From Candidatus Latescibacterota bacterium (GTDB taxonomy: Bacteria > Latescibacterota > UBA2968 > SICM01), in NCBI GenBank assembly GCA_965217865.1, contig CBDCJO010000002.1, positions 3,968,001-4,032,000 of the forward strand: a DNA stretch of 64,000 nt. Direction: 5' to 3'. Every line of letters starts with the position of its first letter. The first letter of the stretch is position 1. The notes below the pieces were generated by a model that made no database searches, was not told the DNA's origin, and was given only the letters and a program-made list of their open reading frames with translations. Below, piece by piece: positions 19,220 to 61,539 of the stretch. Made by a program: the position numbers and the translations under genes.

Positions 19220-22200
19220 ATGAATAAACAGCCCCCTTTTACTCGACCTCACGCGTTTGAAAATCGCAAATTGTGGATCTTCGCCTTCAGATTTGCAATT
19301 TCCTGATCTTTTCGGATGGCTGGTCCGCTGATCGTAGTGCCGCTCCGCGAATCGCCCCCACGATTGCCCGTCTGTCCTTCTGGTTGTCCCCTGACCGGTT
19401 CAGCGAGTTCGAGACGACATACCGAGAAAAACTTGTGCCTATCCTGAAGAAGCACGGTCTGGAGGAATCTTCGGAACGTGGACGCGCGACAATAGACGGG
19501 GTGTTCAGCCGTCTGTTCGAGGTGAGGGCGCCATCGGAGATTCCTGAAAGGAATAACGCCCTGCGAAATGACACAGCCTGGACTGCGATCCTGAAGGCGT
19601 TAGGGGAGAGTTTCGGAACCAACCGTAATGATGGAACGATTCGCCACAGCCTTCACCTTTATGCCGCGCCAGGAGCGCCTCCCAGAGTCGTATCTGCGGG
19701 TACAGGCAAGATCGTGCCCGCCGGGACAGGGAGGGGCCACTGGCGCACCTATGACGTGACGGACGGTTTGGCCGACGTGAATGTACAAGACATCCTACAG
19801 GATCGAGAGGGTGCCCTCTGGTTCGCCACCTCTAACGGTGTGAGCCGGTACGATCCCCTTCGACTCGCTGACGCTCGCTCAGGGCAGGCTTCGACAAGCT
19901 CAGGACAGGCTCTCCTTCGACTGTCCGGCACAAAGCGCAGCTCCGCTCGTGACATAGTGTTATCGATCATCCAGGACCGGGACGGGGAGATCTGGTTTGG
20001 AACCACAGGAGGGGTAGGGCGGTACGACGGGAAATCCTTATACCACTTTTACCAAGAAAGATGGACTGGCGGACAATTATGTGGTGACGGTCTTTGAAGA
20101 TCGGGATGGCACTATCTGGTTCGGAACCGAGGGGGGCGGTGTGAGCCGGTACGATAGGAAAAAATGGGAAACTTTCACCACCCGGGATGGGCTGGCGAAT
20201 AATTATGTAACAGAGATTTTTCAAGATTCAAAAGGAAATCTATGGATCGGCACGGAAGGCGGGGGGCTTAGTCGGTATAATGAACAGAAATTTGTCACTT
20301 TCACCACGAAAGACGGTCTTGGGGATAATCGAGTGGAGACGATCTTTGAGGACAGGGAGGGGGTTCTCTGGGTCGGCACCCAGGGGGGAGGTGTATCGCG
20401 GTTTGACGGGACGAGGTTTTCGACCTTCACCACGGAAGACGGCCTGGCCAATAATGTGGTGCGGTCGATCTTTCAGCACCGGGAAGGGCATCTCTGGTTC
20501 GGCACGGGCGGTGGTTTAAGCCAGTATAGCGGGCCGTCCTTTACCTCTTTTGCAGCCCGGGACGGCCTGGGGAACAACCAGGTGGAGACGATCTTTGAGG
20601 ATGGGGACGGGATTCTCTGGATCGGAACCGATGGCTCAGGTGTGAGTCGGTATGATGGGGGTGACCTTTACGCGCTTTACCGTACAGGATGGCCTGGCCA
20701 ATAATGAGGTTCGTTCGATCTTTCAGGATCGAGATGGAGTACTCTGGTTCGGCACCCGGGGCGGGATGAGCCGGTATGATGGCGTGACATTCACCAATTT
20801 TACGTTGGAGGGTGTGCTGGGGCATGATGAGATTCAATCGATTTTTCGAGACCGGGAGGGAAATCTCTGGTTCAGCGTTGAAGGGGGCGGGCTCATCCGG
20901 AATAATCCCTCCGGAGCCGAAAGGTCCTGGACGGTTTTCACCTCCGAGGATGGGGTGGGTCGGCATACGGTGTTTTCGATCTTTCAGGACCGGGATGGTA
21001 TTCTCTGGTTCGGCACCATGGGCGGGGGTGTGAGCCGGTTTGACCCTTCCGGCTCCGTAGGCCATGGACAGAGATTTATCACTTATACAGAACAGGATGG
21101 CGTTGGGCACAACGATGTGTTTTCTATCTTTCAAGACAGGGAGGGGTTCCTCTGGTTCGGTACGCAAGGCGGAGGGGTGAGTCGGTATGATGGTCAGGCT
21201 TTTACAACATTTACGACCCAGGACGGCCTGGCCAACAATGTGGTGCGATCGATCATTCAGGACCGGGAGGGCCATCTCTGGTTCGGAACATACGGCGGGG
21301 GCGTAAGCCGTTATGACGGGAATGACTTTCAGACTATGGACCTTCGGGACGGTCTTGCGGGCAACCAGGTGCTCTCCGTCATTCAGGATCGGAACGGTAA
21401 TCTCTGGTTCGGAACTTACGGCGGGTTGACGCGATATCGACAGCCTCTCTCGTCCGCTCCTCTGGTGTCTATCGAAGCGGTGGTGGCGGACCGCCGGTAT
21501 ACCGTCGGATCCGAACTGGAAATTCCCTCGAGTGTAAATCTGACTGCCTTTGAATTCAAGGGGATCAGTTTCAAGACCCGGGCGGAGTCGATGGTTTACA
21601 GGTATCGGTTGAAAGGCTACGACGAGGTCTGGAAGTCCACCCGCGCCCGGCGTGTGGAATACCCGGACCTTCCGAGAGGGGACTACACGTTCGAGGTGAG
21701 GGCAGTGGACCGGGACTTGGTGCCGTCGGACCGACCGGCATCGGTGACGATGCGAATACGCCTGCCTTATGAAAGAATCGCCTGGGTTTCAGCACTTGGC
21801 ATCGCTATAGGACTGATCGCCTGGCAGACAACCCGCGTGGTCCAGCGGGGACTTCGGCTGCGGGAAGGCGAGGCGCGGTTTCGGGGACTGTCAGAGGCCA
21901 CTTTCGAGGGGATTGCGCTCCACGAAGATGGTAAGATCCTGGATGCGAATCGGGCCCTGGCCACGATGTTCGGATATGATCCCTCTGGGATAATCGGAAA
22001 GACCGCCGCAGAGCTGTCTACTCCGGAATCGCACGGAATTGTCTACAAGAATATTCAATCCGGATATGATAGACCGTATGAGGTGGTGGGTTTGAAAAAG
22101 GATGGATCCACCTTTCCGATTGAGGTCATCGGCAGGGACGTTCCCTATCGTGGGCGCATCGTCAGGGTCACTGCGATTCGGGATCTCACGGATCGTAGAC

Positions 22201-23477
22201 GGGCGGAGGAGGAGCGGGCGAAGCTGGATGAACAGCTACAGCAGCTTCGCTATCTCTACCGGCTGCGGACCGCGATGGCGGGCGGACGGTCGCCGGAGGA
22301 GATCATTCGTAAGGCAGGCGAATCCGTGATGGAGGTTCTGTCGGTTTCAGGTGCGGGGGGCGCTCTGATCGATTACGATGCACGGACTTATAAGTTTGGG
22401 GAAACGGAGGGTGAGAACCTGATTCGTTACAAACGTCCGGTCGCCTGGGGGGAGCGGGAGCGGGGGGTCTTGCGGCTTTTCTGCAGCGTCAAACTGAGCG
22501 AGTCGCAGGAGCGTGCGCTCCTGGACGAGACGGCAGCGCAGATGGCACGGGCCCTGGAAGCGCGTGATCTGGAGCTGCAGCTTTTGGAATCCGCCCGATT
22601 GGTCTCCCTGGGGCAGATGGCTGCAGGCGTTGCCCACGAGATGAATCAGCCTCTGGGGGCGATCTCGGCCACGACGGAGGACTATTTCCTGAGATTAAGA
22701 GAAGGCATGGCGGTCTCTGACGAGCAGTGGACAGAGATGTTGAAACGGATTCTGGGCATGGTGGACCGCATGTCGGGCACGGTGGAGCATCTGCGGGCTT
22801 TTTCGCGAGACTCCTCAGAGGAGCGGGGTGTGCGGATGTCCGTAAAAGAGGTGATTCAGTCGGGTCTGGGCCTTATCGGGACTCAACTCAAGAACCACGG
22901 GATCGATCTGCATACCGAATTTGGGGAAGATGTGCCGGAGGTAAGAGGCCATCCTCGCCAGCTGGAACAGGTTTTTCTCAACCTGATCGGTAATGCGAGA
23001 GATGCGCTGGACGAGAAGGATGAAACCGTGGATCGTGGATCGTGGATCGTGGATCGTGAAATGACAGGCGGGAGGCAGGCGGTAAAGGCGCAAATAGGTT
23101 ATGACGAGTCACGAGTCACGAACCACGAATCACGTGGAGGGAGAGGGGATGGGACTAAGGGATGGGCGAAGCGTTTGATCATCCGGACCCGGCAAGAGGG
23201 TGACGATGTTGTGGCGGAGGTGGAGGACAACGGCGTTGGGATCGAGGAGGAGAATGTCGGACGGGTGTTCGAGCCGTTCTTCACGACCAAGGAGGCGGAT
23301 AAGGGAACGGGATTGGGGCTGTCGATTTCGTATGCGATTGTGAAGAACCACGGGGGAGAGATTGTGTGTGAGAGTCGGAAGGGGGAAGGTACGGTGTTTA
23401 GGGTGAGATTGCCGTGGGAAGAACGTGAAACGGCAAACGTGAGACGTGAGACTAGGAAAGTGAAACGTGAGACGTGA
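19220..23477 (+). CDS. Beta-propeller (Reg_prop)-YYY-TM-PAS-HisKA-HATPase sensor histidine kinase, split by 2-3 single-base frameshifts
   Basis: Repeated 'SIFQDRDGxLWFGTxGGVSRYDG'; YRYRLKGYD..W (YYY); PAS KKDGSTFPIEV; H-box VAHEMNQP; N-box NLIGNARDA; G-box GTGLGL. Frame breaks at ~20040 and 20657-20661, and probably at 19299-19301. Confidence 0.88.
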
Positions 23478-23549: not shown

Positions 23550-23912
23550 ATGTTGGATTTGCGTCATAAGAATCTGGAGGTTTGGAAAGCCAGTATAGAC
23601 TTCGTAAGTGACATATACCAATTGACAGGAAGTTTCCCCCAAAAGGAGTTGTACGGCATCACCAGTCAACTGAGAAGGGCTGCTGTCTCCGTCCCGTCAA
23701 ACCTCGCAGAAGGCTGTTCTCGGAGCTCTCCACTTGAGCGGAAGCGGTTTTACGAAATTGCCCGCTCCTCCTTGGTTGAGATGGATACCCATTTTGAGAT
23801 CTCCAGAAGGCTCGGATACTGCTCGGAAAATGATCTTAAAACGCTTTCAGAGAAAATGAATCATATTTTTGCCCTGCTTTCTCGGTTGCTTAAAAAAACG
23901 CAAGCATCATAA
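23550..23912 (+). CDS. Four helix bundle protein (23S rRNA IVP / TIGR02436-type)
   Basis: L.VW..S, FPQKELYGITSQLRRAAVSVPSNLAEG, FYEIARSSLVE and LGY signature. Confidence 0.93.
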   Translation: MLDLRHKNLEVWKASIDFVSDIYQLTGSFPQKELYGITSQLRRAAVSVPSNLAEGCSRSSPLERKRFYEIARSSLVEMDTHFEISRRLGYCSENDLKTLSEKMNHIFALLSRLLKKTQAS

Positions 23913-23958
23913 GCGTGATTTCACTGCCTGATATTGCCCAGGTATAGTAGACACAGAG

Positions 23959-24816
23959 TTAAGTGAATTTCTGTTCGAAGTCATCTGGGCTCATCTGGTT
24001 AATATAGGAGTGCCTGCGTATCTTGTTGTAAAATCCTTCGATGTATTCGAACAACGCCAACGCGGCTTGCTCTCGATCTGGATAGATCATTCCGTCGACT
24101 TCCTCTGTCTTGAGCCTTGCAAAGAAGGATTCAACAACGGCATTGTCATAACAATTTCCCTTTCTTGCCATGCTGGATCGGAAGCCGTTTTTGTCCAGCT
24201 CGGCTCTCAGGGCCTCACTGGTGAACTGGTTTCCCCTATCTGAGTGGAAGATGAGCCCCGGTTGCGGCTTGCGTCGCCGACAGGCCATCCGAAATGCCCG
24301 TAAGACCAGATCCGCCGTCATAAGACAGCCTGTGGACCAGCCTACGACTTTGCGAGCAAACAGATCCAACACCACGCACAGGTAAAGATATCCCCGTCGC
24401 GTGCGGATATAGGTGATATCCGATGCCCAGACCTTGTCCGGCTTATTCACCTGAAACTGCTGCTTCACCAGATCCCGGGACGCCAAACCGATGCCACCTT
24501 TGGTCAGCACCCGGAACCGACGCTTCGGCTTTCCCTGGATGCCGCAGGCCCGCATCAGCCGCGCAACACGATTACGGCTGCACATAATGCCTTCAGCCTT
24601 GAGATCTTGCGTTATCCGAGGACTGCCATACGCCCTCTTCCTGGAATGCTGATGCACTCTTCGAATGTGCTCAATCAGAGCACGATCGCGCTTGCATCGA
24701 CCACTTTCTGGCTCCTGGTGCCAGGCATAATAACCGCTTGGATCAACCTCCAGCACCCGGCACATCCGCCGTATCGGAAACTGACCCCGGTGCTCTTCGA
24801 TAAAGGCGTATCTCAT
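23959..24816 (-). CDS. IS3 transposase OrfB (DDE integrase core)
   Basis: YGSPRI, WASDITYI, HSDRGNQF, DNAVVESFF and YNKIRRHS motifs. Confidence 0.95.
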   Translation of the reverse strand: MRYAFIEEHRGQFPIRRMCRVLEVDPSGYYAWHQEPESGRCKRDRALIEHIRRVHQHSRKRAYGSPRITQDLKAEGIMCSRNRVARLMRACGIQGKPKRRFRVLTKGGIGLASRDLVKQQFQVNKPDKVWASDITYIRTRRGYLYLCVVLDLFARKVVGWSTGCLMTADLVLRAFRMACRRRKPQPGLIFHSDRGNQFTSEALRAELDKNGFRSSMARKGNCYDNAVVESFFARLKTEEVDGMIYPDREQAALALFEYIEGFYNKIRRHSYINQMSPDDFEQKFT

Positions 24817-25109
24817 TGGGACCGGTTGGAGAAGTAGGCCAGCGCTTTTTTTAGGATGTCTCGCTCTTGCTCGACCTGGGAAAGCTTGCGCTTCAGATCG
24901 TAGACCTCCTGGCCTTCCGTTGTCCGCTTCCCGTGACCCGGAAACACATCATCCGGATGCTTCTGAAACTGACCGATCCATCGATACAACACGCCTTCTG
25001 GAATGTCCCATTCCAGGGAAACTGCCTTCACCTTCTCGCCGTCCACCAGTACCTTACGAACGGACTCCAACTTGAACTGACGATCGTACCGCCTGCAACG
25101 ACGTACCAT
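24813..25109 (-). CDS. IS3 transposase OrfA (HTH)
   Basis: RRYDRQFKLESV...ERDILKKALAYF; A7G slippery site at 24845-24852 (minus strand); ATGA overlap with orfB. Confidence 0.92.
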   Translation of the reverse strand: MVRRCRRYDRQFKLESVRKVLVDGEKVKAVSLEWDIPEGVLYRWIGQFQKHPDDVFPGHGKRTTEGQEVYDLKRKLSQVEQERDILKKALAYFSNRSQ

Positions 25110-25165
25110 AGAGGACACCTCCCTTATCTGGGTGTCCACTAAATCGGGGCAAGATTAGCCTAGCC

Positions 25166-25199
25166 TTTTCCCGTCTCACGTTTCACGTCTCACGTTTCC
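25166..25199 (-). repeat. Right heptamer array, inverted relative to 23421..23538
   Basis: TTTTCCCGTCTCACGTTTCACGTCTCACGTTTCC is the reverse complement of GGAAACGTGAGACGTGAAACGTGAGACGGGAAAA. Confidence 0.9.
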
Positions 25200-25210
25200 A
25201 GGTCCATCTG

Positions 25211-25811
25211 ATGTCCCCACCTAACTCACATCGTGGCCTTTCTATTTTACTCATCGACGACGACTCCGCCGTCCTGACTGCTGTAGGCGATTATCTGAGC
25301 ACACGGGAACACCGGGTATTCCCCGCTGAGGAAGGCGCGGAAGGTCTGGAGATCCTGCGGCGCGAGGAGATCGACATCGTGATCACGGATATCAGGATGC
25401 CGGGGACGGGCGGGTTCGAGGTACTCCGGGAGGTTCGGAAAACGTCTCCGGGTACAGAGGTCATCATGGTGACGGGGTACGGGGACATCGACGGTTATTC
25501 TTTGCAAAGATGGCTGGATCACGCGGAAGGAGATGCGGTTTGAGCCATCCGGCGTGTCGCGATTCGATAAAACCAAGGACCAGGAAGAAGGGGGTTCGAG
25601 CGACGATACCGCGTCCGATCTGAGCGGTGCGCTTCGTGCGGTCTCGGAGAAGGGGTTGAACCTATCCGGAATAGAGGCGGAAGCGATCCGGGAAGCATTA
25701 AGAAGAACCCAAGGAAGTCAAGGACAGGCGGCGGCGCTTCTCGGTCTTTCCCGGTTCGCGCTTCGGAGGAGAATGGGGATTTACGGGATCGAGGCAGGGC
25801 GGAAAGAATGA
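25211..25811 (+). pseudogene. NtrC-type sigma54-dependent response regulator with the central AAA+ domain deleted
   Basis: The receiver (LIDDD, ITDIRMPG, VTGYG) breaks at ~25492 before the conserved Lys. Another frame then reads VILCKDGWIT...IEAEAIREALRRTQGSQGQAAALLGLSRFALRRRM (end of AAA lid plus Fis HTH). Confidence 0.8.
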
Positions 25812-26059: not shown

Positions 26060-26218
26060 CCTCCTTCAGATCAACTCCAGATTTACGTATAATCATCTGG
26101 CATATTGATTAATGAGAGCCGGCAGACGGTAAACGTGAAACGGCAGACGGAAAACCGATCAAGATTCTTTCCGTATGTCGTTTTCGCAAATTTTGGACAG
26201 GCTGTCCCCAGGGACTTC

Positions 26219-38768: not shown

Positions 38769-39284
38769 GGTATGAATGCCTGAATCTCCTCCGTGTTATC
38801 GGCCCAAGCGGCGCGCGGGATGAAAGGAAATTTAAAATTCAATCGATTCCCCCGGACTGACTTCTTGACTTCCCGTGTGCCTGCCAGTAAATTGCCCGTT
38901 AAGCCGGCAAACGGCAAACGGCAAACGGCAAACGGCAAACGTGAAACGGGAAGGCATAGATTGGAAAGGCCGTGGTTCGTGGATCGGAGAATCCGGGGTT
39001 CGTGGTTCGTGGCTCGGGGTTCGAAAAGGGAACCGGCAAAGTTCTGGGAGGGCCCGCGGCCTCAAAAAGACGGTCGATCGTGAATCGTGATTCGTGGATC
39101 GAAATGACCGGGAAGCGTATCTCGGGATTCTGAAAACCTCTGACAATAAAGGCTTGGATGTTAGCGGACGCCGGGGCCGGCGTCCCTCCACAAAAGACCG
39201 TGGATCGTGGATCGTGATTCGTGAAGCGTATCTCGAAAATGCTGTCTAACATTAATTTAACTTTCATGAAAGGAATGATTTTGT

Positions 39285-48800: not shown

Positions 48801-48908
48801 CTCGCCACTCCCAAATTCATTGAATATTGAATATCGGAAAATTGAATATTTGAACAATTCACGACATTCTTGGGGGTGCTCCAATATTCAATCTTCAATA
48901 TTCAATTT
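48801..48908. repeat. Inverted heptamer cassette (AATATTG)n...(CAATATT/CAATCTT)n
   Basis: About 55 bp match 61410..61467 in reverse complement. Confidence 0.8.
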
Positions 48909-53898: not shown

Positions 53899-54003
53899 AT
53901 CAGGATCCCTTTCGGAAAACCCGTAGATCGTGGATCGTGATTCGGGGATCGGAAAAGCAAAAAAAACTTTGGCAATTCATCCAATAATTCCCATCGATCA
54001 TTA

Positions 54004-54075
54004 ACGAATCACGAATCACGAATCACGAATCACGAATCACGAATCACGAATCACGAATCACGAATCACGAATCAC
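54004..54075. repeat. Perfect heptamer tandem array (ACGAATC)x10
   Basis: Counted directly; faces an inverted degenerate array at 53921-53952. Confidence 0.95.
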
Positions 54076-61283: not shown

Positions 61284-61539
61284 GGTGTCGCCACGGAGGA
61301 TTTCTATATATTACACAGGGGTCGGGGGCCAGGGAAAATTGAAGATCGACGATTGAAGATTATTGAAGATTGAAAATCGAAGAGATCCAAATGGCCACAG
61401 TAGTCCTGAGGTGTTCAAATCTTCAATTTTCCGATATTCAATATTCAATGAAGTTTGGGAGGTGAGGGGGAATTCAAATGCAAAATGCAAAAACCCGTGT
61501 CGCGCCCAAAAAGGAATGGTTCAAGAACTGTAATAGAAG

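What the first reader, a model, noticed from the sequence alone, without database searches (positions are those of the whole stretch)
23026..23160. Gene-less inverted heptamer cassette inserted in frame in the kinase HATPase domain
Seen: (GATCGTG)x4, a ~45-nt spacer, then GACGAGT CACGAGT CACGAAC CACGAAT CACG as an imperfect inverted arm. It translates as VDRGSWIVDRE...ESRVTNHESR between the N box and G1 box, adding roughly 40 aa without breaking the frame. Inference: a non-autonomous (MITE-like) version of the four-helix cassette tolerated in a surface loop, creating new protein sequence. It might alternatively be removed at RNA level.
Basis: partly seen in the sequence, partly recalled or inferred. 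Interest (0 to 1): 0.7.

Follow-up and report, generated by a model that had tools for sequence, protein, structure and literature searches.

The report
Repeat hairpin translated in kinase loop
A 108-base mirror-image run of 7-base repeats sits in frame inside a sensor-kinase gene, where it would add about 40 likely disordered amino acids to a loop; the same stretch holds different repeats in at least 28 kinases of a related genome, so it is likely a tolerant landing spot reshuffled between gene copies rather than a switch.

Summary
Observation confirmed. A 108-nt element (CGTGGAT x4.6, 45-nt spacer, inverted ACGAATC-type arm; 23027-23134) lies in frame between the N and G1 boxes. That interval is 70 aa against a median of 30 in short-loop homologues, and is predicted as a disordered loop on an intact ATPase fold.

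It is most likely translated, not removed. Strain variants differ by -30, -51 and +3 nt, one losing most of the left arm. All 28 repeat-bearing kinase loops found in relative G001 stay in frame.

The MITE-of-the-cassette reading is weak: the spacer is unique, no target duplication was found, and the arms differ from those of the neighbouring four-helix cassette. Gene-less hairpins (about 90) far outnumber four-helix genes (4 loci).

The wider result: this interval is a repeat hot spot. In G001, 14 of 39 repeat clusters lie in it, with at least six unit types. Inserts appear to travel between kinase paralogues with adjacent sequence. How the hairpins first arrive is unresolved.

It works like Rickettsia palindromic elements. 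This scan earlier noted heptamer-armed four-helix cassettes and a similar kinase-loop hot spot on other DNA.

The parts
20652..23477 (+). Sensor histidine kinase ORF, 941 aa (Reg_prop propeller, Y_Y_Y, PAS, HisKA, HATPase_c); H, N, G1, F and G2 boxes intact
   Evidence: Foldseek top hits are HK853-type kinases
22980..23006 (+). N box (NLIGNARDA), left anchor of the loop
23027..23058 (+). Left (G-rich) arm, CGTGGAT x4.6, reads VDRGSWIVDRE
23059..23103 (+). 45-nt spacer, unique in the genome; likely holds a decayed second heptamer array (GGCAGACGG type; strains show A at 23079)
   Evidence: the second-array reading is inference from P0003 (RQTADG) and the window array at 26120
23104..23134 (+). 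Right (C-rich) inverted arm, ACGAGTC/ACGAACC/ACGAATC x4.4, reads ESRVTNHESR
23135..23166 (+). G-rich tail (GGRGDGTKGW), similar to the post-insert tail of G001 paralogues that carry other repeat units
23217..23240 (+). G1 box (EVEDNGVG), right anchor of the loop
23422..23538 (+). Left arm arrays (ACGTGAG/AAACGTG) of the neighbouring four-helix cassette; 23422-23477 also encodes the kinase C-terminal tail
23550..23912 (+). Four-helix-bundle gene (TIGR02436 / PF05635)
25167..25198 (+). Right arm of the four-helix cassette (TTTCACG/TCTCACG), separated from its gene by two transposase-like ORFs at 23959-25139
   Evidence: the IS3-like label was recognised by eye from the translation, not scanned

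Best explanation
The element is one copy of the genome's gene-less inverted-heptamer hairpin family, sitting in frame in the N-box-to-G1 interval of the kinase ATPase domain, where it is likely translated as a predicted disordered loop of about 40 extra residues and is likely close to neutral. Shown: the sequence, the open frame, its absence from most homologues, the variants of 3n length and the recurrence of different repeat units in this interval. Inferred: selection keeps only stop-free, frame-preserving versions. Inferred: the loop's content turns over by recombination or gene conversion, with arrays copied from the genome-wide repeat pool and insert-plus-flank tracts copied between kinase paralogues using the conserved N and G1 boxes as homology, and with slippage and deletion trimming the arms. 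The pool itself likely descends from arms of the four-helix-cassette type. The enzyme that first placed hairpins in genes was not identified.
For: 1. Frame is kept in variants found at DNA level, not selected as proteins: -30 nt (X7, X10; most of the left arm gone), -51 nt and +3 nt (X11), equal length (X4, X8); none differs by 7. 2. In G001, 28 of 65 recovered kinase N-G1 intervals carry 7- or 8-nt arrays; 0 of 65 are out of frame or hold a stop. 3. AlphaFold with 101 sequences: residues 161-204 are coil, pLDDT under 50 at 171-198, flanking helix and strands at 90 or above. 4. Against one X11 variant, 14 of 18 listed substitutions in the loop change an amino acid, against 3 of 7 in the flanks (table truncated, small numbers). 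5. At least six unit types occupy the interval (ATCGTGG/AATCACG, AAACGGAG, ACAGGAG, ACCGTCG, CCGTGGT, AAGTGTC, ACTCAGG). Recent paralogues differ in which one they hold. 6. Hot spot: 14 of 39 examined G001 clusters of two repeat families lie in this interval, 14 in frame in other ORFs, 11 between genes. The intervals make up roughly 0.15% of that genome (my estimate). 7. Mosaic: the window's kinase is 51-54% identical to P0003-P0005 in the DHp but 87-91% after the loop, and these share its insert. 8. Unrelated octamer-insert kinases share the 39 nt after the insert (identity 0.75 against 0.54 for empty pairs) but not the next 90 nt (0.52 against 0.52); W at that strand in 15 of 16 against 2 of 30. 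9. No target duplication and a unique spacer.
Against: No RNA or protein data: translation is inferred. The G001 loci were fetched preferentially for long or split matches (65 intervals out of 130 match rows), and many are recent paralogues, so 28 is not 28 independent events and 28 of 65 overstates the share. In the window's own genome only 1 of 28 kinase loops has an array. The shared strand could be target preference instead of co-conversion: the W was already present in the best G000 match for 3 of 6 octamer kinases and absent for 3, two of which share one match. The hairpins have fixed polarity (G-rich arm first in 83 of 90) and related spacers within intergenic families, which fits discrete mobile units. 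The 5' part of this gene is in three frames relative to P0002, so this copy may be decaying or mis-assembled. The tree was the quick one, with many open forks.
Confidence: 0.6

Rival explanations
1. The hairpin is a true non-autonomous mobile element (MITE- or REPIN-like), moved as a unit by a trans-acting enzyme, possibly linked to the four-helix protein, with a sequence preference for purine-rich sites in kinase loops. The protein-level consequences would be the same as in the best explanation.
For: About 90 gene-less hairpins against 3 control hits, with fixed polarity in 83 of 90. Intergenic families share spacers and arm boundaries (A-rich, then C, CGTG...CG, then AAA). Compact CGTG...CACG units occur in G001 and G002. 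Heptamer arrays lie near four-helix genes in 9 of 10 relatives' loci.
Against: No target duplication (mean best flank repeat 1.07 nt against 1.03 +/- 0.24 shuffled, 27 elements). This copy's spacer is unique. Its arm unit matches none of the 4 four-helix loci in G000 and none of the arrays listed in the 10 relatives' loci. No transposase or nuclease family is enriched beside arrays (517 neighbouring genes, crude gene calls). The four-helix family has no known catalytic activity (recalled).
Confidence: 0.2
2. The arrays arose in place: a purine-rich loop (GAGAAGGA) seeded slippage expansion, and hairpin-templated copying generated the inverted arm.
For: Long perfect ACGAATC runs between genes show active slippage. 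The site resembles some G-arm units.
Against: The units in loops are the same families that are abundant elsewhere in each genome: the CGTGRWT pattern has 70 clusters in G000, and the GAAACGGA pattern has 34 matches in G001 and 0 in G000, G018, G069 and G091. Nested second-family repeats occur in the loops.
Confidence: 0.1
3. The element is kept for regulation: an RNase III-type cleavage or ribosome-pausing hairpin in the mRNA, or a 7-nt slippage switch that would truncate the kinase before G1.
For: A stable hairpin. RNase III cleavage at element arms is reported for Correia elements (PMC10969869, passage). Four perfect units could slip.
Against: A near strain lost most of the left arm. No sense-strand G-U bias in 65 oriented hairpins (153 G-U against 146 A-C; p 0.59). 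No 7-nt variant of this insert in contigs of 8 runs, though contigs drop rare variants. Inserts turn over between paralogues.
Confidence: 0.07
4. The hairpin is excised from the mRNA and the ends rejoined, or the ribosome bypasses it, giving the short-loop kinase.
For: The layout resembles the stem of ORF-bearing 23S rRNA intervening sequences (recalled; those are cut without religation).
Against: Removal would free length from frame, yet 28 of 28 G001 inserts and all 3 DNA-level length variants are 3n and stop-free where read. Between genes, hairpin lengths are spread over all three remainders. Arm loss is tolerated. No Rfam match. The single 23S gene is 3027 nt, with no large intervening sequence.
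Confidence: 0.03

Closest known systems
Rickettsia palindromic elements (RPE) inserted in frame in proteins (PMC10969869, passage seen; original papers not held)
   Same: Palindromic repeat of 100-150 nt, found both between genes and in frame in unrelated ORFs, predicted compatible with the fold
   Different: RPE families have one conserved sequence and peptide. Here the arms are tandem 7- or 8-mers with many unit types and unique spacers, concentrated in one loop of one protein superfamily.
Heptamer repeats of Xanthomonas (GGGAATC) and Nostoc (PMC4692102, passages); cyanobacterial STRR and SDR (recalled, papers not held)
   Same: 7-nt units, about four copies, convergent inverted pairs, mostly intergenic with a minority intragenic
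   Different: Different units that are not G-quadruplex-type here. The passages read make no link to kinase loops or four-helix genes.
REPINs with RAYT transposases (PMC3116915, passages)
   Same: Gene-less inverted doublets forming hairpins, many copies per genome
   Different: The arms are tandem arrays, not single REP palindromes. No RAYT-like gene is enriched beside the arrays. REPINs are described as extragenic.
ORF-bearing 23S rRNA intervening sequences and heptamer-armed PF05635/TIGR02436 cassettes (family; IVS biology recalled; cassette layout noted by earlier scan reports)
   Same: Inverted heptamer arms with the G-rich arm first; a cassette of this kind lies 300 nt downstream
   Different: No cargo gene, a different unit, inside an mRNA coding region, and apparently translated

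Membership tests
MITE | Terminal inverted repeats | tested here: met
   Inverted arms CGTG...CACG, hairpin z -3.06; they are tandem arrays, not typical TIRs
MITE | Target-site duplication | tested here: not met
   None at this copy; 27 CGTG-type hairpins give 1.07 nt against 1.03 +/- 0.24 shuffled. No exact empty allele was available.
MITE | Multiple near-identical copies including the internal sequence | tested here: not met
   The spacer's best other hit is 14 nt, E 0.63; other intergenic hairpin families do share spacers
MITE | Ends shared with an autonomous transposase-bearing element | tested here: inconclusive
   No enriched transposase family beside arrays (crude gene calls, families read by eye); arms differ from those of the four four-helix loci
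RPE-like coding palindrome | In-frame, stop-free insertion in protein-coding genes | tested here: met
RPE-like coding palindrome | Insertion in a surface loop compatible with the fold | tested here: met
   Predicted only: coil with low pLDDT between confident elements
RPE-like coding palindrome | One conserved element sequence and peptide per family; homology to RPE | tested here: not met
   At least six unit types and variable spacers in the same interval; sequence homology to RPE itself was not tested
RPE-like coding palindrome | Inserted peptide present in the expressed protein | not testable with these tools
   No RNA holder listed; no proteomics
23S-IVS / four-helix cassette | PF05635/TIGR02436 gene between the arms | tested here: not met
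   45-nt spacer only; the nearest such gene is at 23550 and has other arms
23S-IVS / four-helix cassette | RNase III excision | not testable with these tools
   No RNA data; indirect signs are against a need for removal
Known intron, intein or Rfam RNA | Match to a curated family | tested here: not met
   Rfam 0 matches at E up to 1; no intein domain among the Pfam hits
REPIN/RAYT | RAYT gene flanked by the same repeats | not tested
   No RAYT family search was run; the neighbour enrichment showed none

The most novel reading that the evidence does not exclude
Repeat hairpins spread through the histidine-kinase superfamily of this lineage by a homing-like route that needs no enzyme of their own: the insert plus a short G1-strand tract is copied between unrelated kinase paralogues, and the arrays act as crossover points that swap ATPase halves between sensors. 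A selfish repeat system tied to four-helix cassettes would then be an engine of signalling-protein shuffling and new loop sequence.
Probability: 0.25. Interest if true: 0.7.

Novelty: new variant of a known kind. Interest (0 to 1): 0.42.

Why it matters
In-frame palindromic repeats that add peptide to proteins are known from Rickettsia, so this single insert is a modest result. The lineage-wide pattern adds more. One interval of the kinase ATPase domain takes up 36% (14 of 39) of the sampled repeat clusters in a relative, holds many unit types and shows signs of exchange between paralogues. That gives a testable case of how unexplained bacterial heptamer repeats spread, which is still open, and of how new protein sequence accumulates in signalling enzymes. 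It also warns annotators that these loops split HATPase matches and break assemblies: several G001 contigs end at or in them.

Tried and rejected
The search for related loci in genome contigs was saturated by generic kinases. It gave only a background: 54 loops measured in 80 loci, all 20-37 aa. The metagenome pattern scan gave 3 loci, all matching sequences already seen.

No RNA holder was listed: no evidence either way on expression or splicing.

The single-sequence fold was useless (pLDDT 34.5); the alignment-based fold was used.

The first pairing test of arrays, needing 6 of 7 unit identity, showed no excess (18 against 24) and missed the window's own pair. Base-pair scoring gave 21 against 12.4 +/- 2.4 within 200 nt, and no excess within 1500 nt (27 against 29). 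The arm-versus-flank test gave 90 against 3.

The sense-strand G-U test was negative. No GxxExxY gene was found in G000. No candidate mobiliser was enriched beside arrays; the top family was ASPIC/UnbV-like proteins, which carry inserts themselves (name recalled).

I first read the G001 GAAACGG arrays as heptamers; they are 8-nt units. Two long-loop homologues (P0088, P0091) are not repeat-derived (L109) and were left out of the 12 repeat-bearing ones. P0082 and P0100 end inside the loop; P0100 ends at a contig end, P0082 could not be checked. The careful tree did not finish and no one-clade test was run.

Literature searches found no paper linking heptamer arrays to four-helix genes or kinase loops (0 hits; listings only). 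Elhai 2008, Mrazek 2007 and Ogata 2002 were not held, so what I say of them is recalled. Subscription papers and bioRxiv supplements could hold prior descriptions.

Full report
1. Observation. The element is as described: a left arm CGTGGAT x4.6 at 23027-23058, a 45-nt spacer, and a right arm at 23104-23134. The core CGTG...CACG is 108 nt, 36 codons. It lies in a 941-aa sensor kinase ORF between the N and G1 boxes and folds into a long hairpin with one mismatch per heptamer (z -3.06). Contigs from other runs reproduce it exactly. Period-7 arrays are a genome-wide feature: 383 against 4-13 at other periods, 540 after merging two detectors.

2. It is an insertion. Of 120 homologues listed (those with names are Handelsmanbacteria, Latescibacterota and a few other groups), 104 could be measured. 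Ninety have a 22-41-aa interval (median 30) and 14 have 53-89 aa. Twelve of the 14 carry repeat-derived peptides. DNA was seen for the window, for G001 paralogues matching P0008, P0009 and P0022, and for a P0002-type strain; the others are read from their peptides. AlphaFold with a 101-sequence alignment puts the insert in coil (residues 161-204; pLDDT under 50 at 171-198) on a confident ATPase fold, which matches HK853-type kinases.

3. It is most likely translated. Variants found by laying DNA contigs differ by -30, -51 and +3 nt or not at all; the -30 form has lost most of the left arm. In relative G001 I recovered 65 kinase N-G1 intervals, fetched preferentially from long or split matches among 130 match rows. 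Twenty-eight carry 7- or 8-nt arrays, and none of the 65 is out of frame or holds a stop. Between genes, hairpin lengths fall on all three remainders. The two units used here translate without stops, whereas the left-arm unit of the genome's commonest family, ATTGAAG, contains one. There is no G-U bias on the sense strand (153 against 146), no Rfam match, and no large intervening sequence in the 23S gene. No RNA run was available, so removal is disfavoured, not excluded.

4. Relation to the four-helix cassette. A PF05635/TIGR02436 gene lies 300 nt downstream with ACGTGAG-type arms, its right arm separated from it by transposase-like ORFs. The genome has only 4 such loci, and only 4 of 540 arrays lie within 300 nt of one. 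Gene-less hairpins number about 90 (control 3), and 83 have the G-rich arm first. So gene-less is the normal state. This copy's spacer is unique, its unit is not that of any of the four cassettes, and 27 CGTG-type hairpins show no target duplication. It shares architecture with the cassettes and probably a remote origin, but it fails the MITE tests that could be run. Intergenic families with shared spacers keep a mobile-unit origin open.

5. The interval is a hot spot. Taking all G001 matches to two repeat patterns regardless of location, 39 of 41 clusters were examined: 14 lie in kinase N-G1 intervals, 14 in frame in other ORFs and 11 between genes. The other ORFs include AcrB, UvrA, UvrD, MutS, Lnt and an ABC ATPase; 2 have no Pfam hit. 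The kinase intervals are about 0.15% of that genome by my estimate. Two neighbouring turns are used: before the first strand (the window's subfamily) and after it (other subfamilies). At least six unit types occur, and a second repeat family (CCCTCTCCC...GGGAGAGGG type) occupies or nests in other loops. Recent paralogues with one shared best match in G000 hold different inserts or none. In the window's genome only 1 of 28 kinase loops is occupied. The two patterns are absent from G018 and G091 and nearly absent from G069, whose homologues have short loops.

6. Exchange between paralogues. The window's kinase shares its insert with P0003-P0005 and is 87-91% identical to them after the loop but only 51-54% in the DHp, where its nearest non-twin relative is a short-loop protein (66%). 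A quick tree of the loop-less core also separates them (many forks open). In G001, unrelated kinases with octamer inserts share the 39 nt after the insert (0.75 against 0.54) but not the next 90 nt (0.52 against 0.52), with W in 15 of 16 against 2 of 30 (pairs are not independent). This fits short-tract conversion anchored on the G1 box. Target preference is not excluded: the W was already present in the best G000 match in 3 of 6 cases.

7. Mechanism. Most likely (0.6): a near-neutral translated loop, filtered for frame, whose content is replaced by recombination with the genome's repeat pool and with other kinase genes. Shown: the frame, the variants, the hot spot, the mosaic identities. Inferred: translation, neutrality, conversion. 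Unknown: the first insertion step; no mobiliser gene was enriched beside arrays. Rivals: enzyme-driven MITE- or REPIN-like transposition (0.2), local slippage (0.1), a regulatory hairpin or phase switch (0.07), RNA-level removal (0.03). One caveat: the 5' propeller region of this gene is split over three frames relative to P0002, so this copy may be decaying or carry assembly errors.

8. Comparison with what is known. It works like Rickettsia palindromic elements (PMC10969869, passages). Its arms resemble the inverted heptamer pairs of Xanthomonas (PMC4692102, passages), and the doublet layout resembles REPINs (PMC3116915, passages). It is a member of none of these by the tests listed. Searches for a link between heptamer arrays and four-helix genes or kinase loops returned 0 papers. 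The library lacks most subscription journals, and three key older papers were not held. Earlier notes of this scan describe heptamer-armed four-helix cassettes in other genomes and a kinase-loop repeat hot spot in an Omnitrophota genome. These are unchecked notes and not independent support, but they mean the scan has met both ideas before.

9. Verdict. Real, and a new variant of a known kind. Interest 0.42. The boldest reading not excluded is a homing-like spread of repeats through kinase paralogues that also shuffles their domains (probability 0.25, interest 0.7).

Noticed in passing
window 19273-20704: The 5' part of the kinase gene is split over three frames (19399-20058, 20030-20659, 20658 onward) relative to the intact 1484-aa homologue P0002: pseudogenisation or assembly error.
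   Followed up: partly
window 19877-19912: A second repeat family (GCTCAGGACAG type; reads PLRLADARSGQASTSSGQALLRLS) sits in frame in the propeller region; P0002, P0004 and P0005 carry similar peptides at several blades.
   Followed up: no
window 23422-23477: The cassette's left arm is translated as the kinase C-terminal tail (ETANVRRETRKVKRET), absent from most homologues.
   Followed up: partly
window 23913-25166: Two transposase-like ORFs (IS3-like by eye) lie between the four-helix gene and its right arm.
   Followed up: no
window 38905-39240, 53922-54075, 48819-48906, 61334-61449: Composite clusters of several heptamer families and gene-less hairpins; the ACGAATC run at 54004-54075 has 10.3 perfect copies, and much longer runs occur elsewhere in the genome.
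   Followed up: partly
G000:C2:745902-749668 and C1:549641-551524: Adjacent ASPIC/UnbV-like genes (name recalled) carry in-frame heptamer inserts, two of them at the same loop with different lengths.
   Followed up: partly
G000:C2:1176667-1177809 and L175:1218-1283: ABC ATPase genes in G000 and G001 carry in-frame repeats of different units at what looks like the same position, before EVET; not aligned directly.
   Followed up: no
L140/L158 and L147/L159: Apparent orthologue pairs between G001 and G002 share octamer inserts; L158 keeps only the left arm.
   Followed up: partly
P0004: Carries a duplicated N box around the insert, possibly a recombination scar or an assembly error.
   Followed up: no
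G000:C2:852691-853403: A four-helix gene flanked on each side by a complete heptamer hairpin rather than by single arms.
   Followed up: no
window 25211-25811: A receiver-domain ORF and a Fis-type HTH ORF abut without the central AAA domain, perhaps a deleted NtrC-like regulator.
   Followed up: no
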